Source: Patescibacteria group bacterium (lineage in GTDB: Bacteria; Patescibacteriota; Patescibacteriia; JAXHNJ01). From it: a stretch of 64,000 bases of DNA. The position numbers and the translations under genes are program-made. Shown here piece by piece: positions 21,957-36,182 of this stretch; position 1 is the stretch's first letter, and every line of letters starts with the position of its first letter. The notes below the pieces were generated by a model that saw only the letters and a list, made by a program, of their open reading frames with translations, did no database searches and was not told where the DNA came from. The stretch covers positions 436,638 to 500,637 of the forward strand of contig JBAZMP010000001.1 in NCBI GenBank assembly GCA_041649715.1. The letters are read 5' to 3'.

Positions 21957-22013
21957 TTGTAATAGAGAAAACATGGGTCAGGTCTTATCGCGCAATTAAA
22001 AAATATCTATAAC

Positions 22014-24683
22014 ATGTCTTTTATCGGAAAAATTTTTGGCGATGGCAATAAGCGGGTTTTGGATAAACTGACGCCAGTTTTGGCCGAGGTCAATAAATTT
22101 GAAGAAATGATGAAAAAATTGCCTGATGCGGATTTTATTCATAAAACACATGAATTCAAAGGGATGTTGGCTAAGGATCCGTCAAAGATCGACCAAATTT
22201 TACCGGAAGCCTTTGCCATGGCGAGGGAGGCGGCTAAAAGGACTTTGGGCCAAAGGCATTTTGACATGCAGATTCTGGGCGGACTGGTCCTTCATCAGGG
22301 CAAGATCGCGGAAATGAAAACCGGTGAGGGCAAAACATTGGTCGCGACCTTGCCTTTGTATTTAAACGCCTTGACCGGCCGTGGCTGCCACCTGGTTACC
22401 GTGAACGATTATCTTGCCAAACGTGACTGCGGCTGGATGGGGCCGGTATATTACGCGTTGGGGGTGAGTGTGGCCGCCATCGTCCATGAAGAGGCTTTCA
22501 TCTTTGACCCGGATTTTGAAAACAAGGAGGCGATTGACCCTAAGGTAAGACACTTAAAACCCGTCAACCGGCGGCAGGCTTATGAGGCGGATATCACCTA
22601 CGGGACCAATAATGAATTTGGCTTTGACTACTTGCGCGATAATATGGTTCCCGACTTGCCGTATATGGTTCAGCGGGAATTGAATTACGCGATTGTCGAT
22701 GAAGTAGACAGTATCCTGATAGATGAGGCGCGTACCCCACTGATTATTTCCGCTCCGGCGGAGGAATCCACGGAAATGTATTATAAATTTGCCCAGCTTA
22801 TTCCGCAGCTTGAGGAGGGGACAGATTACAATATCGACGAAAAAATGCGGGCCGCCACCTTGACCGAGGAGGGGATGAATAAAATGGAAAAAAAGCTCGG
22901 CCTTTCCAATATCTATGAAGCCGGCGGGATTGAGCTGGTCCATCATCTCGAACAGGCGTTGAAAGCGCACGCCCTTTTTAAAAGAGACAAGGATTATGTG
23001 GTCAAAGAGGGAGAAATTATCATCGTGGATGAATTCACTGGTCGTTTGATGTTTGGACGGCGTTATTCGGAGGGTTTGCACCAGGCCATTGAGGCGAAAG
23101 AAGGTGTGGAGATAAAAAAGGAAAGTCAGACGTTGGCCACCATTTCATTTCAGAATTACTTTCGCATATATAAAAAACTGTCTGGAATGACCGGGACAGC
23201 GGCGACGGAAGCGGAGGAATTCCACAAAATCTATAATCTTGAGGTGATTGTCGTGCCAACCAACAAGCCGATGATCAGAAAAGACTCAAATGACAGTATC
23301 TACAAGTCAGAAAAAGGTAAATTCATGGCTATCGTCCACGAGATCAAGCGCCGGCACGAAATCGGCCAGCCGGTGCTGGTGGGCACGATTTCCATTGAAA
23401 AAAATGAATTATTGGCGGAATTGCTTGAGCGGGAGGGGGTGCCGCATAATGTGTTAAACGCCAAGCAGCACGAGAGAGAGGCGCAGATTATCGCCCAGGC
23501 CGGAAAATTCGGGGCGGTCACCGTGGCCACCAATATGGCCGGTCGCGGCGTGGATATTGTCTTGGGCGGTAACCCGCCGGACGAAAAAGAAGCGCAAAAA
23601 GTAAAAGAAATCGGCGGTCTGCACGTTTTAGGGACCGAGCGTCACGAATCAAGGCGGATTGACAATCAGCTCCGCGGCCGCACCGGCCGCCAAGGCGATC
23701 CGGGCTCATCCCAGTTTTTTATTTCCCTGGAGGATGATTTAATGAGAATCTTCGGTTCAGGCCGGATGAAATCCTTCATGGACCGTCTGGGGGTGCCTGA
23801 GGATATGCCCATTGAAAATAAAATGATTTCCCGGTCGATTGAATCGGCTCAGAAAAAAGTGGAAGGTAATAATTTTGACATCAGAAAACACCTCGTGGAA
23901 TATGATGACGTGATGAATAAGCACCGCGAAGTGATTTACAAGAAACGTCAGCAGATTTTGAATATCAAGCCCGAAGATTTGAGAAAATCATTGATGGAAA
24001 TGATCGACGGAGAAATCGAACAAGTGGTTTTGTTTCACACCACCGCCGAAGATGAAAGGACCTGGAATTTGGATGAGATATACGAGGTGGTTGATACGAT
24101 TTTTCCGGTGCCTCTTTCGACCCGTGTCAAGCTGGAAGATCTGCGAAAAGAGGCCGGTGACAAAGCGGACGATGCCCGTTCACGTTCCCACATCATTGAC
24201 TACCTAATGTCTTTGGCAAATAAGGCCTATGATCAGATGGTCGAACAAATAAATGATACGAACTTCATGCACCAGATCGAAAGGGGAATAATTTTGCGCA
24301 CTATTGATACCCTATGGATCGAACATTTGGACCAGATGAATTATATGCGGACAGGTATCGGCCTGCGCGGTTACGGCCAGCAGGATCCTTTAGTGGAATA
24401 CAAAAAAGAAGCCTTCCAGATGTTTACCCAGCTGATGAACAATATCAACGCTCAGATTGTCTACAGCATCTATAAAATTCCTTTGGCGCAAAAACAAATG
24501 GTTTCTCCGATGCAAACGCAGAAACAGATAGAAACCGCGCCGGCCAAGGTTAGCGTTGAACAGAATGCTCCAGCTGACGGCATTAAGGATAAACCAAAGA
24601 ATGATTCAGGGAAAAAAATCGGACGCAACGATCCCTGCCCTTGCGGGAGCGGGAAAAAATACAAGAAGTGCTGTGGGAAATAG
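22014..24683 (+). CDS. secA: Preprotein translocase ATPase SecA.
   Basis: 889 aa with DEAD-like motor motifs, a preprotein cross-linking domain, and a C-terminal zinc finger [14 protein letters not shown]. Confidence 0.95.
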
Positions 24684-27904: not shown

Positions 27905-29365
27905 TTGTTTTTTAAGGAATGGGACAAAAATAAAAACAAAAAGAAAATGAGAACACACATCCGCTTTTGTTTAGTGGCTTTAATCCTTTTCTTAGGGATT
28001 ATTTTTTTATACCCCAAAAACGTTTCAGCCGCCGGCCAAATTGTGCCGGAGGTAAAAATTTTTGAGAACGGCGTTCAGACGAAGAGTTTCTATGGTTTTG
28101 ACCTGGGTTTTCGCGGCGGTGTGAGAGTTGCGACGGGAGATGTTGACGGGAATGGGGCTGATGAGATAATCGTCGCCGCGGGCGTAAACGGCGGACCGAA
28201 TATTCAGATTTTTAAGAATAACGGCGAAAAGATGATAAGTTTTATGGCTTACGATATAAAGTTTAGAAACGGAGTAAAAGTGACCTCCTGTGACGTTAAC
28301 AACGACGGTAGGGATGAAATTATAACCTCGCCGGGTTTAAGGGGCGGACCAAATGTCAAGATATTTAACGTTGGGGGCGAACAACTTAGAAGTTTCATGG
28401 CCTATGACATTAATTTTCGCGGCGGCGTCAATATCGGTTGCGGAGACGTTAACGCTGACGGCCTGGCGGAAATAATTACGGGAGCCGGTCCGGGTGGCGG
28501 CCCCCATGTTAGAGTTTTCAATCAAAAAGGCGAAAGTTTGAATATGGATTTTTTCCCGTTCAGTTTTAATAATAAAGGAGGGGTGAATATCGCTGTCGGG
28601 AATGTAACCGGCGATGAAAGACCAGAGATCATTGTTTCGGTTGCCCAATTTGGCGTACCGGTTATTGAGGTGTACGACGATCAATGGCATAAGCTTTCGG
28701 GTTTTTATGCTTATGACGTTGAATTTCAGGGCGGAGTAAATATAGCGACCGGCAATATTGATAATGACAATTATGATGAAATAATCGCGGCGGCCAATAC
28801 AGGCGCCGGACCTCATGTCCGCACCCTTGATTACTTAGGCAACAATCAGGAATTGAACTTTTTTCCCTATCCGGTTGATTTCCGCGGAGGAGTCTTTGTC
28901 GCCTCCGGCGACGTGATTGGCGACGGGAAGGATGAGATTATTACCGGACCGGGATTTTTAGCGGATACTCGTTATTCCCAGTACCCGAAATACATTGATA
29001 TCGATATTAGTGAACAAAAACTGAAGGTAATTGAGAACGGGCAGGAGATAGGTGATTATCAGATATCTTCCGGTAAACCGGGAATGGATACGCCCGGCGG
29101 AATTTTTACCGTTCTTAGCAAAAGCCCCACCGCCTATTCAAAAAAGTATGCCTTGTATATGCCATATTGGATGCAGTTCTCCGGCCAGGGCCACGGGTTG
29201 CACGGTCTACCGTATTGGCGCTTACGCGGTGGCGGCGTGATCAAGGAGGGAGAAAATCATTTAGGAATTCGTGTCTCGCATGGTTGCGTGCGTTTATCTT
29301 GGGAAGATGCAGAAATAGTTTATAATTGGGTCTCGATCGGCACACCAATAATTATTCATAACTAA
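27905..29365 (+). CDS. FG-GAP/VCBS-repeat beta-propeller fused to a C-terminal L,D-transpeptidase (YkuD) domain.
   Basis: Signal peptide plus TM, then about 7 repeats of GDV(D/N)GDGxDEIIxGxGxGGGPxV(K/R)(I/V)F. The C-terminus carries the SHGCVRL catalytic motif of L,D-transpeptidases. Confidence 0.8.
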   Translation: MFFKEWDKNKNKKKMRTHIRFCLVALILFLGIIFLYPKNVSAAGQIVPEVKIFENGVQTKSFYGFDLGFRGGVRVATGDVDGNGADEIIVAAGVNGGPNIQIFKNNGEKMISFMAYDIKFRNGVKVTSCDVNNDGRDEIITSPGLRGGPNVKIFNVGGEQLRSFMAYDINFRGGVNIGCGDVNADGLAEIITGAGPGGGPHVRVFNQKGESLNMDFFPFSFNNKGGVNIAVGNVTGDERPEIIVSVAQFGVPVIEVYDDQWHKLSGFYAYDVEFQGGVNIATGNIDNDNYDEIIAAANTGAGPHVRTLDYLGNNQELNFFPYPVDFRGGVFVASGDVIGDGKDEIITGPGFLADTRYSQYPKYIDIDISEQKLKVIENGQEIGDYQISSGKPGMDTPGGIFTVLSKSPTAYSKKYALYMPYWMQFSGQGHGLHGLPYWRLRGGGVIKEGENHLGIRVSHGCVRLSWEDAEIVYNWVSIGTPIIIHN

Positions 29366-30043: not shown

Positions 30044-30829
30044 ATGGAAACATCATCTATTATAAACGAAGAAGTTAGATTCAAAAAATTAAGGATTTAT
30101 AATGTCGTCATGGCTATTTTTCACGCGATTCAGGGCGTATTGATGCTGGTTTTAAGTACTAGTTTTTCCTTGCCCGTGACTACGTCTTTTGTCCAATATA
30201 GCTCCACGGCCGGTAAGCTGGAACCGGTAATAAAGCAAGCTTTTGAAATAAGGCTCGGACTATTAGTCGCAATTTTTCTCTTTCTTTCCGCCCTGGCTCA
30301 TTTTTTGGTTTCCACGTTCTTTTATCGATGGTATGTGAATAATCTAAAGAGGGGGTTGAATTTGGCCCGTTGGATCGAATATTCTTTTAGCTCTTCGTTG
30401 ATGATCGTGGTTATCTCAATGTTGGTCGGGATTTATGATGGCGTAAGCCTAATGCTGATTTTCTTTCTTAATATGATGATGATACTTTTCGGCTGGCTGA
30501 TGGAAGTACATAATCAAACCACGCCAAAGATTAATTGGACTGCATTTATTTTCGGCTGTTTAGCGGGAGCCATTCCCTGGGTGGCAGTCGCCCTGTATTT
30601 GTTTGGTTCGGGAACGCCCGGAGCGAAACCGCCGACTTTTGTCTATTGGATCTTCTTTTCTATTTTTCTTTTCTTTAATATATTTGCCGTCAATATGGTA
30701 TTGCAATATAAAAAAACGGGTAAATGGCGAGATTATCTTTACGGCGAAAAGGTCTATATAATATTAAGTCTGGTGGCTAAATCATTGCTCGCCTGGCAGG
30801 TCTGGGCGGGAACGTTAAGGCCGGTCTAG
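30044..30829 (+). CDS. Heliorhodopsin (inverted-topology microbial rhodopsin).
   Basis: 261 aa, 7 TM. Close collinear match to heliorhodopsin 48C12: RWIEYSFSSSLMIVVIS vs RWVEYSLSSSVMIVLIA, ILFGWLMEV vs ILFGWLQEK, FGCLAGAIPW vs FGCIAGIVPW, and YGEKVYIILSLVAKSLLAWQVWAGTLRP vs RGERAYIVLSLVAKSALAWQIFSGTLIP. The retinal Schiff-base Lys in TM7 is conserved. Confidence 0.85.
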   Translation: METSSIINEEVRFKKLRIYNVVMAIFHAIQGVLMLVLSTSFSLPVTTSFVQYSSTAGKLEPVIKQAFEIRLGLLVAIFLFLSALAHFLVSTFFYRWYVNNLKRGLNLARWIEYSFSSSLMIVVISMLVGIYDGVSLMLIFFLNMMMILFGWLMEVHNQTTPKINWTAFIFGCLAGAIPWVAVALYLFGSGTPGAKPPTFVYWIFFSIFLFFNIFAVNMVLQYKKTGKWRDYLYGEKVYIILSLVAKSLLAWQVWAGTLRPV

Positions 30830-30917: not shown

Positions 30918-32600
30918 ATGTCAATAAGACGTAAGGTTTGGTTAACTTTTTCCGGTATTATTCTACTCGCTGTATTAGCGGGTTTGCTTGATTACCCCAA
31001 AGGCCCGAATATTAAAATTGGCTCATATTTTAAGGAAATCAAAGTTCATCTGGGCCTGGACCTTTCTGGCGGTACCCGCTTGGTCTATCAAGCCGACACC
31101 GCCAACATAGCCGAAGCGGATAAGGCTTCCGCCTTGGATGGGGTTCGTGACGTCATTGAAAGACGGATTAACGCTTTCGGCGTTTCCGAACCGGTTATTC
31201 AGACCAACAAATCTGGAGAAAATTGGCGGGTAACCGTTGAATTACCTGGCATCACCGATATCAGCCAGGCAATAAAGCTTATCGGGGAAACGCCGCTTTT
31301 GGAATTTAAAGAAGAAGCCCCGGCGGCCGTTCTGTCGGATGAACAAAAAAAAGAAATCGAAGATTATAATAAGCAGGCGAAAGAGAAGGCCCTGGGGATG
31401 TTAGCGGAAGCACTAAAAAGCGGCGCGGATTTTGCCGCTTTGGCTAGCGAGTATAGCGAAGATCCGGGCAGTAAAGATCAGGGCGGTGATTTGGGCTTTT
31501 TTGGTGAAGGGGAGATGGTAGCTGAGTTTAACGAGGTGGCATTTAGCAAAGCGGTAAAAGGTGTGGTCTATCCGGAGCTCGTCGAGACGGTCTATGGTTA
31601 TCATATTATCTTAAAAACCGATGAAAAAGTGACCGATGGCAAAAAAGAGGTAAGGGCTTCTCACATTCTGATCCTTAAAAAAAGCGAAGCCGATTACCAA
31701 ACCGGCGAAGCGTACGTTGAGACCGGTCTTTCCGGCCAACAATTGCAAAGAGCCTTTGTGGAGTTTGACCAGAACACTGGAGCGCCGAGCGTCGGTTTGG
31801 AATTCAACGACGAGGGAAAGAAATTATTTTCCGACATTACTGAGAGAAATATTAATAAGATTGTCGCTATTTATCTGGATGGTTCTCCGATTTCATTGCC
31901 TACGGTAAATTCCAAAATTACGGAAGGAACGGCCGTCATTACCGGTAATTTTACTCTGACCGAGGCCAAGACCTTGGCTCAACGTCTAAACTCCGGGGCT
32001 TTACCCGTGCCCATCACTTTAATAAGTCAGCAGAATATCGGGGCCACTTTAGGTAAAATATCGGTTCAAAAAAGCTTGTTCGCCGGACTTTTAGGACTGT
32101 TTTCTGTCGCCTTCTTTATGATCATTTTTTACCGTTTACCCGGTCTTCTTTCCGTTCTCGCCCTCATTATTTATTCTTTAGTCGCGTTGGCCATTTTTAA
32201 GCTTTGGCCAGTGACCATGACCTTGGCCGGTGTCGCCGGTTTTATCCTTTCCATCGGTATGGCGGTGGATGCCAATGTATTGATTTTTGAACGGATGAAG
32301 GAAGAACTAGAGGCGGGAAAACCTTTGGATTTGGCAATTGAAGACGGATTTAAACGGGCCTGGCTTTCCATCCGTGATTCAAACGTTTCTTCCATTATCA
32401 CTTGTATTATATTGGCTTGGTTTGGAACAAGCTTAATAAAGGGATTTGCCATTACTTTAGCCATCGGCATCTTCGTTTCTATGTTCTCGGCGATCACGGT
32501 CACCCGAACTTTTTTAAGACTGATGGTCGGTCCCCGCTTATCCAGCCATTTGGCCTGGTTCGGCGTTAAACAAAATCATACACCAGAAAAAAATGTATAA
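30918..32600 (+). CDS. secD: Protein translocase subunit SecD with a parvulin-type (PpiC) peptidyl-prolyl isomerase domain inserted in the first periplasmic domain.
   Basis: SecD TM1, P1 domain and the C-terminal 5-TM core are present. Residues around 140-235 (GADFAALASEYSEDPGSKDQGGDLGFFGEGEMVAEFNEVAFS...VYGYHIIL) match the PpiC rotamase domain. Confidence 0.85.
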   Translation: MSIRRKVWLTFSGIILLAVLAGLLDYPKGPNIKIGSYFKEIKVHLGLDLSGGTRLVYQADTANIAEADKASALDGVRDVIERRINAFGVSEPVIQTNKSGENWRVTVELPGITDISQAIKLIGETPLLEFKEEAPAAVLSDEQKKEIEDYNKQAKEKALGMLAEALKSGADFAALASEYSEDPGSKDQGGDLGFFGEGEMVAEFNEVAFSKAVKGVVYPELVETVYGYHIILKTDEKVTDGKKEVRASHILILKKSEADYQTGEAYVETGLSGQQLQRAFVEFDQNTGAPSVGLEFNDEGKKLFSDITERNINKIVAIYLDGSPISLPTVNSKITEGTAVITGNFTLTEAKTLAQRLNSGALPVPITLISQQNIGATLGKISVQKSLFAGLLGLFSVAFFMIIFYRLPGLLSVLALIIYSLVALAIFKLWPVTMTLAGVAGFILSIGMAVDANVLIFERMKEELEAGKPLDLAIEDGFKRAWLSIRDSNVSSIITCIILAWFGTSLIKGFAITLAIGIFVSMFSAITVTRTFLRLMVGPRLSSHLAWFGVKQNHTPEKNV

Positions 32601-33483
32601 CATCATCCAAAAAAGAAATTTTTTCTTTTCCGTTTCAGGTGTTTTTATTATCATTAGCCTGGTATTCATATTCTTGGGCGGTCTTAAGTTCAGTATTGAT
32701 TTTACCGGCGGGGCGCTGATGCAAGTTGAGTTTAAAGGGGAAAGACCATCCGCGCCGGAAGTCGAAGCCTCTTTGGCGGAGTTAAACCTGGGAACTATTA
32801 ATATTCAGAACGTCGGAGAGAAGGACATGATTCTAAAAATGAGAAATATTAATAACGACGAAAGAGTATCCATAACGGAAAATCTCCAAAACCTCAGACC
32901 GATGGAGGAAAAAACCTTTGACACGGTCGGTCCGATTATTGGCCAGGAGTTGAAAAGAAAAGCGATCTACGCCAATATTTTAGTATTAATCTGTATTATT
33001 ATTTATCTCGCCTGGGCTTTCCGTAAAATATCCTCTTATAGAGTTTCCAGCTGGCTGTTCGGCATAAACGCAGTCATTGCCCTGATCCATGATATATTAA
33101 TCACGATCGGACTTTTCTCCGTTTTAGGTTATTTTTTTAATATAGAAGTGGACAGCCTTTTCGTTACGGCTCTTCTTACTATCTTGGGTTTTTCCGTTCA
33201 TGACACAATCGTCGTATTCGACCGGATCCGTGAAGGAATAAAAAAAGATTTTTCTTCGCCGTTCGAAACGATAATAAACCGAAGTATTAATGAAACCATG
33301 ATCCGTTCTCTGAATACTACCATCACCACTTTTTTGGTTTTGATCGCTTTATTTCTTTTTGGCGGTGAATCTGTGAAGTACTTTGTTCTCGCCCTGATGT
33401 TCGGCATCGTTATCGGGACCTATTCTTCAATATTTATCGCTTCGCCACTTCTTTTGCTTTGGAACCGTTTCCGAACAAAATAA
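32593..33483 (+). CDS. secF: Protein translocase subunit SecF.
   Basis: 296 aa, 6 TM, SecF motifs, adjacent to secD. Confidence 0.9.
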   Translation: MYNIIQKRNFFFSVSGVFIIISLVFIFLGGLKFSIDFTGGALMQVEFKGERPSAPEVEASLAELNLGTINIQNVGEKDMILKMRNINNDERVSITENLQNLRPMEEKTFDTVGPIIGQELKRKAIYANILVLICIIIYLAWAFRKISSYRVSSWLFGINAVIALIHDILITIGLFSVLGYFFNIEVDSLFVTALLTILGFSVHDTIVVFDRIREGIKKDFSSPFETIINRSINETMIRSLNTTITTFLVLIALFLFGGESVKYFVLALMFGIVIGTYSSIFIASPLLLLWNRFRTK

Positions 33484-33646: not shown

Positions 33647-34765
33647 ATGAACGATCAAAATTCAATATTAGACAAAATAATAACCTCCAAGCAAACTGAA
33701 GACGTATCACAATTCAATCCCCAGGATAAAGTTTCCAGCTTCTTGAAATTAGTCAGTGACAAGGAGGGGGATATACTTCGCCGTCGCTACGGACTTAACG
33801 GGAAAAGAGAAGAAACTTTGGAAGAGATCGGCGGCATTTATGGCGTCACGCGGGAAAGAATCCGGCAGGTTGAAAATTTGACTTTGCAGAAGATAAAACA
33901 GGCTAAGGAATTTAACGGGCTTATCCAGACGGTTGAAGGGATAATCAGCAGTTTTCTCCATCAGCACGGGGGAATTATGGAAGAAGAGTATCTTTTTTGG
34001 AAAATACTTTCATTTTGTGGCGATTCAGAAATAAACCGGAAATCGCTTTCTTTTATTCTTACCCGGCTCTTGTCTGACAAATTCAAGAAAATCAAAAGTG
34101 ACACCATTAAACCTTCCTGGCTGCTCAAAAGCCAGAATCTTGATCTTTTAAATAAAACACATGAAGCTTTGCAGAAGATATTTGAGAATGAGAATAAACC
34201 CCTGGGTCAAGATGAAATTTTGGCAAAATTTAAGCTTACAGAAATTTATAAAGCCGAAAGCCAGTGGTTAAAGGATGAGGTGGTAATCTCCTATTTAAAA
34301 ACTTTTGCGAAAGTTTCTTCTAATCCGTTTGATGAGTACGGCCTGATTTCCTGGGGTTCCATCACCCCTAAGCGTATCAACGACAAGATTTATCTTATTC
34401 TGAAAAAAAATGGTCAACCCATGCATTTTACAAAAATCGCCGAGATGGTTAATAAGGCGAGTTTTGATGACAAAAAAGCTTATCCGCCCACCGTGCATAA
34501 CGAATTAATATTGAATGACCGTTACGTCCTGGTCGGACGCGGCATTTACGCCCTTAAAGAATGGGGCTATAAGCCGGGAGTAGTTATTGACGTACTGACG
34601 GAAATTTTAAAAAGCGAGAGCAGGCCATTAACTCGTGATGAAGTGATCAAAAAAGTGATGGAAAAAAGAATGGTCAAAAAAAATACTATCCTTCTTGCCC
34701 TGACCAATAAAGAAAGATTTAAAAAGCTGACGGATGGCACCTATACTTTGAATAATCCTCAATAA
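33647..34765 (+). CDS. Sigma-70 region-4-like HTH domain protein.
   Basis: TLEEIGGIYGVTRERIRQVENLTLQKI matches the sigma region 4 HTH. The remainder is uncharacterised. Confidence 0.5.
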   Translation: MNDQNSILDKIITSKQTEDVSQFNPQDKVSSFLKLVSDKEGDILRRRYGLNGKREETLEEIGGIYGVTRERIRQVENLTLQKIKQAKEFNGLIQTVEGIISSFLHQHGGIMEEEYLFWKILSFCGDSEINRKSLSFILTRLLSDKFKKIKSDTIKPSWLLKSQNLDLLNKTHEALQKIFENENKPLGQDEILAKFKLTEIYKAESQWLKDEVVISYLKTFAKVSSNPFDEYGLISWGSITPKRINDKIYLILKKNGQPMHFTKIAEMVNKASFDDKKAYPPTVHNELILNDRYVLVGRGIYALKEWGYKPGVVIDVLTEILKSESRPLTRDEVIKKVMEKRMVKKNTILLALTNKERFKKLTDGTYTLNNPQ

Positions 34766-34772
34766 TATTTTT

Positions 34773-36182
34773 ATGGATATTACGTTAGATTTTTCCACTG
34801 GCGGTTATGCGGACTCCTATTTAGGTCCGTTCTATACTTTGTGGATAATTATTGCTCATGGCGGTTGGGTCGCCCTCGTCATTGCTTTCATTATCGGTTT
34901 TTTCTTGCTTTGGTTGGAATGGCGGCGCAATCTGTTTGACGCCAAGGTAAAATTTATCTTGTTGGCCATTGATATTCCTAAGGAAAATGAGCAGACGCCC
35001 AAAGCCGTGGAAAACATATTTTCACACTTGCACGGCATTCAAAAAAGAGGCAATTTTATTGAAAAGTATATTGGTGGTTACACGCAGCAGTGTTTTTCTT
35101 TGGAGATTATCAGTATCGGCGGATATATCCAATTTCTTATCCGGACACCGGAGGACTGGCGAGATTTAGCCGAAGCCGCCATCTACGCCCAATACCCCAA
35201 TGCGGAAATTACTGAAGTGGAAGATTACACGAAAGATATCAAGATCAAGTTTCCTAATGATGATTATGACATTTGGGGGACGCACATGACCCTAGAGAAA
35301 AAAGACGTATATCCCATTAAAACTTACGTATCTTTCGAAGATCCTTCCACAAAAGAAACGTTTAAAGATCCCATGGCTTCTTTGCTGGAAATAATGAGCC
35401 GTTTAAAAGAGGGGGAGCAGATTTGGATCCAGATGGTAATTTCTCCTGAAGGGAGCAAGGAATGGCGTGATTCCGGTATTAGGGTTATTAAAAAGCTGAT
35501 CGGCGCCAAAACAGAGAGTAAAGGAAAGGATTTATTTTGGCTGCCTAAAAATGTCATCCACGGGGTTAGCGAATCGTTATATGCTTCTATTATCTCCCCA
35601 TCTGATTTATACGGAAGTACCGCCCAAAAGGAGATTCTAAGATGGCCGACCATGATTCAACATTTATCTCCCTCGGAAAGATCGGTCGTGGAGGCGGTCG
35701 GCATAAAAATTTCCAAAATCGCCTTCAAAACAAAAATGAGGGTCATCTACTTGGGCAAAAAAGAAGTTTTCAGCAAAAATCGTTTTGTGCCGGCCATTAT
35801 GGGAGCCCTTAAACAATATAATACTCTGGATATCAACGGTTTAAAGGCCGATGCCAAAACCAAGACCAAGGTGGATTATCCGCCGATAAAGTCGATTATA
35901 GAATGGCGCCAGAACCGGAGAAAATGGCGGGTCATGTGGGGCTATAAATACCGGAGCAGCACGCGCGGGCGTTGCAAGTTTGTTTTAAATATCGAGGAAC
36001 TGGCTACTCTTTTTCATTTTCCGATCATGACGGTGAAAGCTCCGATGGTTAAGAAAACGGAGGCGCGCAAAGCAGAACCGCCGGTCTCTCTGCCCTTGGA
36101 GCAGGCTTACCCCCTTCATAAAAAAAGCGAGGAAGAAATAAGCGAAGAGGAAAAAATTCCCCAGAATATTCCCTTTATTTAA
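34773..36182 (+). CDS. Membrane-anchored hypothetical protein, the partner of the downstream ATPase.
   Basis: N-terminal TM helix or helices (WIIIAHGGWVALVIAFIIGFFLLWL), then a 400 aa soluble domain with no recognised motif. It ends 6 nt before the ATPase gene. Confidence 0.5.
   Translation: MDITLDFSTGGYADSYLGPFYTLWIIIAHGGWVALVIAFIIGFFLLWLEWRRNLFDAKVKFILLAIDIPKENEQTPKAVENIFSHLHGIQKRGNFIEKYIGGYTQQCFSLEIISIGGYIQFLIRTPEDWRDLAEAAIYAQYPNAEITEVEDYTKDIKIKFPNDDYDIWGTHMTLEKKDVYPIKTYVSFEDPSTKETFKDPMASLLEIMSRLKEGEQIWIQMVISPEGSKEWRDSGIRVIKKLIGAKTESKGKDLFWLPKNVIHGVSESLYASIISPSDLYGSTAQKEILRWPTMIQHLSPSERSVVEAVGIKISKIAFKTKMRVIYLGKKEVFSKNRFVPAIMGALKQYNTLDINGLKADAKTKTKVDYPPIKSIIEWRQNRRKWRVMWGYKYRSSTRGRCKFVLNIEELATLFHFPIMTVKAPMVKKTEARKAEPPVSLPLEQAYPLHKKSEEEISEEEKIPQNIPFI

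What the first reader, a model, noticed from the sequence alone, without database searches (positions are those of the whole stretch)
30918..32600. SecD carrying an inserted parvulin (PpiC-type) prolyl isomerase domain
A SecD with an embedded parvulin is not a form I know. The first periplasmic domain of SecD contains about 100 aa (roughly 31320-31630) with the parvulin signature GADF...S.D..S...GGDLGFF..G.MV.EF....F......V....GYHII. This would physically couple the Sec translocon accessory to a folding catalyst, which is normally done by separate PrsA/PpiD proteins.
Basis: seen in the sequence. Interest (0 to 1): 0.6.

Follow-up and report, generated by a model that had tools for sequence, protein, structure and literature searches.

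The report
SecD with a built-in prolyl isomerase
In a lineage of ultra-small Patescibacteria, the protein-export helper SecD carries a rearranged but apparently intact parvulin prolyl-isomerase (folding enzyme) domain in its outward-facing part, which suggests that export and folding are physically joined in one protein.

Summary
ORF 30918-32600 (560 aa) is a genuine SecD (TIGR01129 384 bits, cut-off 244) followed by SecF. Between its P1-base (res 75-133) and P1-head (res 268-364) it carries a parvulin domain (Rotamase_3 80.5 bits, cut-off 22.5; E 1.8e-22). It is not a chimera: the identical protein occurs in independent assemblies, and all 120 closest cluster representatives (59-86% identity) have the same architecture. 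Every genomic locus found with it is patescibacterial.

First, the parvulin appears circularly permuted: strand beta1 with the first catalytic His is missing in front and lies after beta4 ("EVRASHILILKK", res 244-255). Second, related lineages have SecDs with two parvulin cores at the same site.

The most likely function is a PrsA-like foldase or chaperone fixed to the PMF-driven SecDF motor. That function is inferred, not shown. I found no paper describing the fusion. I rate it a new variant of a known kind, of moderate-to-good interest.

The parts
30918..32600 (+). secD ORF, 560 aa plus stop, carrying the embedded parvulin
   Evidence: ORF list. TIGR01129 scores 383.9 bits against a cut-off of 244.4. 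Foldseek matches the whole chain to SecDF structures 5YHF and 3AQP at E about 1e-24 to 1e-21.
30936..30989 (+). TM1 (about res 7-24), preceded by the basic residues RRK; it places the P1 domain outside the cell membrane
   Evidence: The AF2 model has a helix at res 3-23. The topology is taken from homology to SecDF.
31140..31316 (+). N-terminal half of P1 base (Pfam SecD_1st, res 75-133), ending in the strand PLLEFKE
   Evidence: PF21760, E 1.2e-17. It aligns to Thermus SecDF residues 29-117.
31317..31703 (+). The whole insert (about res 134-262): linker, long helix alpha1, parvulin core, beta4 to beta1' hairpin, and linker
   Evidence: 138 residues stand in place of 42 in Thermus SecDF. pLDDT is 92-97 in the domain-only model.
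31353..31625 (+). Parvulin core as matched by Pfam (res 146-236; alpha1 to beta4, GADF...GGDLGFF...GYHII)
31488..31490 (+). D191 (in GGDLG), at the position of Pin1 C113 / Par14 D74
   Evidence: D in 45 of 47 homologs.
31587..31604 (+). T224 to H229 (TVYGYH): the Thr and the second catalytic His, in strand beta4
   Evidence: T or S in 47 of 47 homologs; H in 47 of 47.
31641..31676 (+). Permuted beta1' strand (res 242-253, KEVRASHILILK) carrying the first catalytic-type His, H249 (31662-31664)
   Evidence: H249 is invariant in 47 of 47 homologs. AF2 forms a hairpin from E227-239 to E242-253. Moving this strand to the front extends the Pfam match to profile positions 13-115 and adds about 10 bits. 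The moved version aligns end to end with solved domains 6XD8, 1ZK6 and 4G2P.
31719..32009 (+). P1 head subdomain (res 268-364)
   Evidence: PF22599, E 1.5e-28. It falls within the block that aligns to Thermus SecDF residues 160-424.
32016..32525 (+). TM2-TM6 (res 367-536), including the proton-path Asp D451 (32268-32270)
   Evidence: PF02355. D451 is invariant and aligns with Thermus D340.
32593..33483 (+). secF, overlapping the end of secD by 8 nt
   Evidence: TIGR00966 scores 284.9 bits against a cut-off of 160. A secF-like ORF follows the secD-parvulin gene in every fusion locus whose contig extends past secD; L007 ends inside secD.

Best explanation
This is the SecD subunit of a SecDF complex, the proton-driven accessory that pulls exported polypeptides out of SecYEG. 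In a large patescibacterial (CPR) clade it has acquired a parvulin-type prolyl isomerase domain at the junction between P1 base and P1 head. The domain appears to be a circular permutant. The chain enters at helix alpha1, runs through the core to strand beta4 (GYHII), turns back in a hairpin and supplies the missing central strand beta1 (ASHIL) last, then continues into the P1 head. All four residues at the positions of the parvulin hydrogen-bond tetrad are retained (D191, H249, H229, T224). The domain is therefore most likely a working PPIase or chaperone. Tethered by two flexible linkers beside the moving P1 head, on the outer face of the membrane, it would meet unfolded chains as SecDF captures and releases them. 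There it would catalyse or chaperone their folding, which is the job done by separate PrsA lipoproteins in Firmicutes, by PpiD/YfgM in E. coli and by the PrsA-like dome proteins bound to SecDF in Mycoplasma. Shown here: the architecture, the conservation, the predicted fold and the distribution. Inferred: the strand packing (from AF2 secondary structure and conservation, with no coordinates inspected), the enzymatic activity and the action on Sec substrates.
Against: There is no biochemical or genetic evidence. Conserved catalytic residues do not prove activity, and in B. subtilis PrsA the PPIase activity is reported to be dispensable for the essential function (my recollection of the literature, not checked here). 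The insert lacks the SurA-like N and C chaperone domains that give PrsA, SurA and PpiD most of their substrate binding, and the PrsA NCBIfam models score far below their cut-offs. The position of the parvulin relative to the P1 head and the SecY exit is not determined: pTM of the full model is 0.49 and the linkers have pLDDT around 70. I could not read coordinates, so packing of beta1' between beta4 and beta2 is inferred. I could not test whether these genomes lack a separate PrsA. [quoted passage not shown]
Confidence: 0.62

Rival explanations
1. The insert is mainly a non-catalytic substrate-docking or holdase module. It would enlarge the polypeptide-binding surface of the P1 head, as the inactive parvulin domains of PpiD and SurA P1 do, and prolyl isomerisation would be irrelevant.
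Against: In the single-insert family all four tetrad positions are invariant or nearly so across 47 sequences at 59-86% identity, while neighbouring loop positions drift freely. Inactive parvulins typically lose these residues, although the conserved residues could also be kept for structural reasons.
Confidence: 0.22
2. The insert is a structural or regulatory add-on with no role in folding exported proteins. It might be a spacer or latch that tunes the F-form to I-form swing of the P1 head, or a docking site for another envelope component such as YidC, the cell wall or the S-layer.
For: It lies exactly at the base-to-head hinge connection. That region tolerates other length variation among SecDs: the E. 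coli SecD chain in 5MG3_D is 622 residues, and window residues 247-540 align only from its residue 330. The beta4 to beta1' loop accepts long acidic or Gly-rich insertions.
Against: This does not explain why a complete catalytic tetrad and the hydrophobic substrate-pocket positions (L192 and F204 invariant) are preserved. The closest relatives of the insert are foldases: PrsA and SurA.
Confidence: 0.1
3. The feature is an assembly chimera, a frameshift fusion of two genes, or a chance motif match.
For: None found.
Against: It is a continuous ORF. The identical protein occurs in several independent assemblies. The same architecture occurs in more than 120 divergent homologs and 13 genomic loci, with the flanking SecD segments on both sides. 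Pfam gives E 1.8e-22.
Confidence: 0.01

Closest known systems
SecD / SecDF (Thermus thermophilus SecDF: PDB 3AQP, 5YHF; Deinococcus SecDF: 5XAM, 5XAN, 5XAP)
   Same: It has TM1, an extracytoplasmic P1 base and head, five C-terminal TMs, the conserved proton-path Asp and an adjacent secF. It is a member by every sequence test applied.
   Different: It carries about 96 extra residues forming a parvulin domain at the base-to-head junction. None of the solved SecDF structures has this.
PrsA foldase lipoproteins of Firmicutes (PDB 6VJ6, 6XD8, 4WO7, 1ZK6)
   Different: There is no lipobox and no N/C chaperone domain. Tethering is through SecD itself. The strand order appears permuted. The PrsA family models score far below their cut-offs.
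Bacteroides fragilis essential periplasmic SurA-like PPIase (PDB 8HM3 / 8HM4)
   Different: It is a soluble SurA homolog with an N-domain, a second degenerate parvulin core and a C-tail. It also has an upstream beta1-like strand, which lacks the His. I could not verify whether its His strand packs onto the preceding core, as AF2 predicts for SecD.
PpiD/YfgM at the E. coli SecYEG translocon, and the Mycoplasma pneumoniae 'dome' of PrsA-like lipoproteins (Mpn444/436/489) bound to SecDF
   Same: These use the same logic: a parvulin-containing chaperone is held at the trans side of the Sec machinery. In Mycoplasma it is held directly on SecDF (PMC9643414; bioRxiv 10.1101/2024.09.05.611430 and 10.1101/2025.04.25.650208).
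   Different: Those are separate proteins in non-covalent complexes. Here the parvulin is part of the SecD polypeptide.

Membership tests
SecD (TIGR01129 / Pfam SecD_1st + SecDF_P1_head + SecD_SecF_C) | Scores above the curated family cut-offs | tested here: met
   TIGR01129 scores 383.9 against 244.4. PF21760, PF22599 and PF02355 are all above their gathering scores.
SecD (TIGR01129 / Pfam SecD_1st + SecDF_P1_head + SecD_SecF_C) | Topology of TM1, a large extracytoplasmic P1 domain and five TMs, with overall fold like solved SecDF | tested here: met
   The AF2 model shows the expected helices and strands. Foldseek matches 5YHF and 3AQP at E 4e-24 to 3e-21.
SecD (TIGR01129 / Pfam SecD_1st + SecDF_P1_head + SecD_SecF_C) | Conserved transmembrane Asp of the proton pathway (Thermus D340) | tested here: met
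   D451 in GMAVDANVL aligns with Tt D340 and is invariant in 47 homologs.
SecD (TIGR01129 / Pfam SecD_1st + SecDF_P1_head + SecD_SecF_C) | A partner SecF encoded adjacently | tested here: met
   ORF 32593-33483 scores 284.9 on TIGR00966 against 160. The arrangement is conserved in related loci.
SecD (TIGR01129 / Pfam SecD_1st + SecDF_P1_head + SecD_SecF_C) | PMF-dependent stimulation of protein translocation | not testable with these tools
   This needs genetics or biochemistry.
Parvulin (PpiC-type PPIase; PF00639 / PF13616) | Scores above the curated family cut-offs | tested here: met
   PF13616 scores 80.5 against 22.5 and PF00639 scores 65.9 against 21.7.
Parvulin (PpiC-type PPIase; PF00639 / PF13616) | Parvulin fold | tested here: met
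Parvulin (PpiC-type PPIase; PF00639 / PF13616) | Hydrogen-bonded tetrad Cys/Asp - His - His - Thr/Ser (Pin1 C113-H59-H157-T152; the numbering is from my knowledge of the family) | tested here: met
   D191, H249, H229 and T224 are present and conserved in 45-47 of 47 homologs. Their spatial arrangement was not inspected.
Parvulin (PpiC-type PPIase; PF00639 / PF13616) | Canonical strand order beta1-alpha1-alpha2-alpha3-beta2-alpha4-beta3-beta4 | tested here: not met
   There is no beta1 before alpha1: the Pfam match starts at profile position 28-29. A beta1-type strand follows beta4. This indicates a circular permutant.
Parvulin (PpiC-type PPIase; PF00639 / PF13616) | Peptidyl-prolyl cis-trans isomerase activity | not testable with these tools
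   An enzyme assay is required.
PrsA foldase | Scores above the PrsA family cut-offs; lipoprotein signal; SurA-like N and C chaperone domains flanking the parvulin | tested here: not met
   NF002846 scores 64 against 361 and NF002827 scores 56.5 against 343. The N-terminus is the SecD TM1 with no lipobox Cys. The flanks are SecD P1 base and head. It may work like PrsA but it is not a member.
SurA / PpiD-type chaperones | An N-terminal SurA-like chaperone domain plus parvulin(s) | tested here: not met
   Pfam finds no SurA_N-type domain. SurA and PpiC NCBIfam scores are far below their cut-offs. Only the parvulin part is shared.

The most novel reading that the evidence does not exclude
A whole patescibacterial clade has hard-wired folding catalysis into the Sec motor. 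A circularly permuted but active parvulin rides on the PMF-driven P1 head of SecDF, so each pull-and-release cycle hands the emerging chain to a prolyl isomerase. This would replace, partly or wholly, a separate PrsA in these minimal genomes. The permutant would have arisen by excising the unit 'core plus the next domain's beta1' from a tandem-parvulin SurA-like protein. The same core-then-His-strand topology may be present, unremarked, in the solved Bacteroides PPIase 8HM4. The double-insert SecDs would be nested or swapped versions of the same design.
Probability: 0.3. Interest if true: 0.72.

Novelty: new variant of a known kind. Interest (0 to 1): 0.58.

Why it matters
Gene fusions are classic evidence that two proteins work together. 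Here a fusion conserved across a clade links SecDF to a PrsA/PpiD-type folding catalyst. That supports, independently, the recent view that translocation and extracytoplasmic folding are physically coupled (PpiD/YfgM at SecYEG in E. coli; the SecDF-bound PrsA-like dome in Mycoplasma). It also points to the P1 base-head junction as the place where the coupling happens. It offers a compact single-polypeptide system for testing whether PPIase activity at the translocon exit matters. It provides what appears to be a natural circular permutant of the parvulin fold. And it shows how very small genomes can merge functions. In practical terms, thousands of database entries labelled only 'SecD' hide a second activity.

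Tried and rejected
(1) Chimera or artefact: rejected.

(2) The AFDB50 fold search, intended to get organism names, was unavailable.

(3) The whole-chain Foldseek search returned only SecDF and RND pumps and said nothing about the insert. A domain-only model was therefore made.

(4) Literature searches returned nothing describing the fusion or a permuted parvulin. The term sets were SecD+parvulin; SecD/Patescibacteria/peptidyl-prolyl; 'circular permutation'+parvulin; SecDF+'PPIase domain'+fusion; SecD+PpiC; and CPR+PrsA. The library lacks most subscription journals, so this absence is not proof.

(5) Occurrence outside Patescibacteria: two fusion loci are labelled 'uncultured Gammaproteobacteria' (L007, L022). 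Their neighbouring genes match patescibacterial loci and the window at up to 1203 bits, and L022 shares the secD-secF-sigma70r4/HARE-469 aa synteny. I treat the labels as wrong. Other non-CPR loci whose matches seemed to extend into the SecD flank (L023, L026, L043, L051) are ordinary stand-alone parvulin proteins.

(6) Functional linkage of the upstream heliorhodopsin to secD: rejected, because no heliorhodopsin occurs near secD in the other loci.

(7) The SecD strand PLLEFKE serving as the parvulin beta1: considered, because it occupies the sequence position of beta1 in BLAST alignments to canonical proteins. I judge it unlikely. The strand belongs to the SecD_1st domain in SecDs that have no insert. 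Pfam does not extend the parvulin match to it. The invariant His lies on the trailing strand.

(8) Attempts to see the residue-level 8HM3 alignment with sub-queries and a profile failed. The sequence was finally recovered through a Prevotellaceae homolog. Without coordinates, the strand packing in 8HM4 remains unresolved.

(9) Whether this genome lacks a separate PrsA could not be tested. Only 64 kb is available, and it contains no other parvulin ORF.

Full report
**Observation.** The window has a 560-aa ORF at 30918-32600 on the + strand. A 296-aa ORF at 32593-33483 follows it and overlaps it by 8 nt.

Pfam assigns these domains to the first ORF:
- SecD_1st at residues 75-133
- Rotamase_3 at 146-236 (E 1.8e-22; 80.5 bits against a gathering score of 22.5)
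- Rotamase at 145-234 (E 6.8e-18)
- SecDF_P1_head at 268-364
- SecD_SecF_C at 367-536

NCBIfam's SecD equivalog TIGR01129 scores 383.9 bits against a cut-off of 244.4. It spans 489 residues on a 397-position profile, which leaves about 92 extra residues. The second ORF is SecF (TIGR00966, 284.9 against 160).

**Not an artefact.** The identical protein is on record from NCBI (labelled 'MAG: protein translocase subunit SecD [Patescibacteria group bacterium]', on a 608-kb contig), JGI, ENA and Logan. An independently assembled 21-kb contig from run SRR8542065 carries it with the same neighbours. All 120 best cluster representatives (59-86% identity) carry the same Pfam set, including both rotamase models. 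Where named, they are Patescibacteria or Candidatus Kerfeldbacteria.

**Where the insert sits.** Against Thermus SecDF (3AQP), window residues 39-132 align to Tt 29-117 and residues 271-535 to Tt 160-424. So 138 residues occupy the place of 42, at the connection between the P1 base and the P1 head. The rest of SecD looks functional. The proton-path Asp (D451 in GMAVDANVL) aligns with Tt D340 and is invariant. The whole-chain AF2 model (mean pLDDT 81) matches the SecDF crystal structures 5YHF and 3AQP at E about 1e-24 to 1e-21.

**The parvulin appears circularly permuted.**
- The Pfam match begins only at profile position 28-29 of Rotamase_3, so the N-terminal strand beta1, which carries the first catalytic His, is missing before helix alpha1.
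- A typical beta1 sequence, EVRASHILILKK, lies 11 residues after the beta4 strand GYHIILKT.
- Moving that segment in front of alpha1 raises the Rotamase_3 score from 85.2 to 95.0 bits. It extends coverage to positions 13-115, and extends PF00639 from 9-96 to 1-96.
- The re-ordered sequence aligns over the full length of solved parvulin domains: 6XD8 residues 2-92 of 99, 1ZK6 3-93 of 93, and 4G2P 8-106 of 110. KKEVRASHILI pairs with the beta1 sequence KPEIKASHILV.
- AF2 predicts a beta-hairpin, 227-239 with 242-253, with pLDDT 92-97 in a domain-only model. It also predicts a beta2 strand (191-196) that has no other obvious partner.
- In 47 aligned homologs H229 (beta4) and H249 (beta1') are invariant. 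D191 is present in 45 of 47 and T/S224 in 47 of 47. These are the four positions of the parvulin hydrogen-bond tetrad.
- The hairpin loop is the least conserved segment (0.15 identity) and varies from about 10 to more than 60 residues. The core (0.53) and beta1' (0.54) are conserved nearly as well as the SecD parts (0.65-0.71).

I could not read model coordinates. The packing of beta1' between beta4 and beta2 is therefore an inference, not a measurement.

**Distribution and variants.** I searched a library of representatives at 50% identity with residues 110-281, then classified 154 proteins with my own HMMs. These were the best 150 library hits plus P0116-P0120. About 45 were SecD-parvulin fusions or fragments of them. 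They include roughly a dozen SecDs with two parvulin cores (655-700 aa) and one SecDF fusion with the insert (905 aa).

It gave 13 fusion loci:
- Single-insert forms: Buchananbacteria, Komeilibacteria, unnamed Patescibacteria and one MAG labelled only 'bacterium' (L001-L006).
- Double-insert forms: an unnamed Patescibacteria MAG (L009), Magasanikbacteria (L010), Parcubacteria (L011, L017), Falkowbacteria (L038), and two MAGs labelled Gammaproteobacteria (L007, L022).

Those last two share near-identical neighbouring genes with patescibacterial loci, and L022 also shares the secD-secF-sigma70r4/HARE-HTH-469 aa synteny. I regard the labels as wrong. All other loci were ordinary stand-alone PrsA, SurA or PpiD-type proteins. 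Two of those are from Patescibacteria (L008, L058), so the phylum is not devoid of separate parvulins.

In the double forms the first core is degenerate, the strand between the cores keeps ASH[IL]L, the second core is intact, and the trailing strand often lacks the His. I could not decide whether these are tandem-permuted or nested.

I recovered the sequence through a Prevotellaceae homolog. It is a SurA homolog with this order: an N-domain, a beta1-like strand without His, an intact core, a tight KRGD turn, a His strand (INTRHILLK), a degenerate second core and a C-tail. The window insert aligns to it at 35% identity over 142 residues, from alpha1 through the His strand. Other SurA-like ORFs from Bacteroidota-type MAGs show the same pattern.

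This suggests a source for the SecD insert: the unit 'core plus the next domain's beta1', cut out of a tandem-parvulin protein. That is the classic duplication-and-truncation route to a circular permutant. Whether the His strand in 8HM4 actually packs on the preceding core remains unresolved.

**Mechanism (inferred).** SecDF uses the proton-motive force to swing its P1 head, which captures and releases the polypeptide emerging from SecYEG. This is established knowledge of the family from the Thermus structures. In this protein, a parvulin with an intact catalytic tetrad is tethered by two moderately flexible linkers (pLDDT about 70) at the base-head hinge on the outer face of the membrane. It is therefore placed to act on those same chains. 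Separate proteins do this job elsewhere: PrsA in Firmicutes, PpiD/YfgM at the E. coli translocon (PMC9643414), and the PrsA-like lipoproteins that bind SecDF in Mycoplasma pneumoniae (bioRxiv 10.1101/2024.09.05.611430 and 10.1101/2025.04.25.650208).

The insert lacks the SurA-like chaperone domains of those proteins and fails the PrsA family cut-offs. So it may work like PrsA, but it is not a PrsA. A purely chaperone or purely structural role cannot be excluded. The strict conservation of the tetrad argues for catalysis.

**Novelty.** Six literature searches found no description of a SecD-parvulin fusion or of a permuted parvulin. Databases name these proteins simply 'SecD'. The components are well known and fusions are a familiar evolutionary event. 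I rate it a new variant of a known kind, with moderate-to-good interest. It is a clade-wide 'Rosetta-stone' link between SecDF and extracytoplasmic foldases, with an unusual fold permutation.

Noticed in passing
window 30044-30829 (+): A heliorhodopsin gene (PF18761, E 9.5e-101, full-length match) ends 88 nt upstream of secD. The retinal-Lys region reads ...SLVAKSLLAWQ... The adjacency is not conserved: no heliorhodopsin was found within 6 kb of secD in the related loci. A published survey reported only 3 heliorhodopsins in the CPR class ABY1 (PMC9166423).
   Followed up: partly
window 33647-34765 and 34773-36182 (+); also L001, L002, L003, L005, L006, L010, L017, L022: Downstream of secF lies a 372-aa protein with Sigma70_r4 at the N-terminus and a HARE-HTH domain. 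It is followed by a 469-aa ORF with an N-terminal membrane segment and no Pfam match. The pair is strongly conserved next to secDF in 7 patescibacterial loci (phmmer E 1e-74 to 1e-121), and the 469-aa ORF alone also in L010 (E 4.8e-82). Its function is unknown.
   Followed up: partly
P0125, P0129, P0151, P0182, P0188, P0232; loci L007, L009, L010, L011, L017, L022, L038: These SecD variants have two parvulin cores at the same insertion site (655-726 aa). The first core is degenerate, the inter-core strand keeps ASH[IL]L, the second core is intact, and the trailing strand often lacks the His. The arrangement could be tandem-permuted or nested. They occur in Magasanikbacteria, Falkowbacteria and Parcubacteria-labelled MAGs.
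   Followed up: partly
P0181 (905 aa); P0158 (624 aa); P0118 (582 aa): P0181 is a fused SecDF that carries the same insert. Several family members have long Gly/Glu/Val-rich expansions (up to about 60 aa) in the loop between beta4 and the permuted beta1' strand, so that loop is a hotspot for insertions.
   Followed up: no
PDB 8HM3/8HM4; L018:5326-6798, L051:7097-8500, L059:5401-6684, L065:5365-6699: SurA-like PPIases of Bacteroidota-type bacteria have a first beta1 strand without the catalytic His, an intact first core, and then a His-bearing strand in front of a second parvulin core that is degenerate in some (8HM4, L051, L018) and keeps GGDLG and GYH in others (L059, L065). With the exceptionally long structural match to the SecD insert, this hints at strand swapping between tandem parvulin domains in a solved structure. 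Not verifiable here without coordinates.
   Followed up: partly
L007 (CAZHFK010000044.1) and L022 (CAZAJQ010000002.1): These MAG contigs are titled 'uncultured Gammaproteobacteria bacterium' but carry patescibacterial-type genes. A 924-aa ORF in L007 scores 1203 bits against window ORF 21966-24680, and L022 shares the secDF-downstream synteny. The taxonomic labels look wrong.
   Followed up: partly
window 27905-29365 (+): A 486-aa secreted protein combines FG-GAP repeats with a C-terminal YkuD L,D-transpeptidase domain (E 1.9e-23). This is consistent with a peptidoglycan-containing envelope.
   Followed up: no
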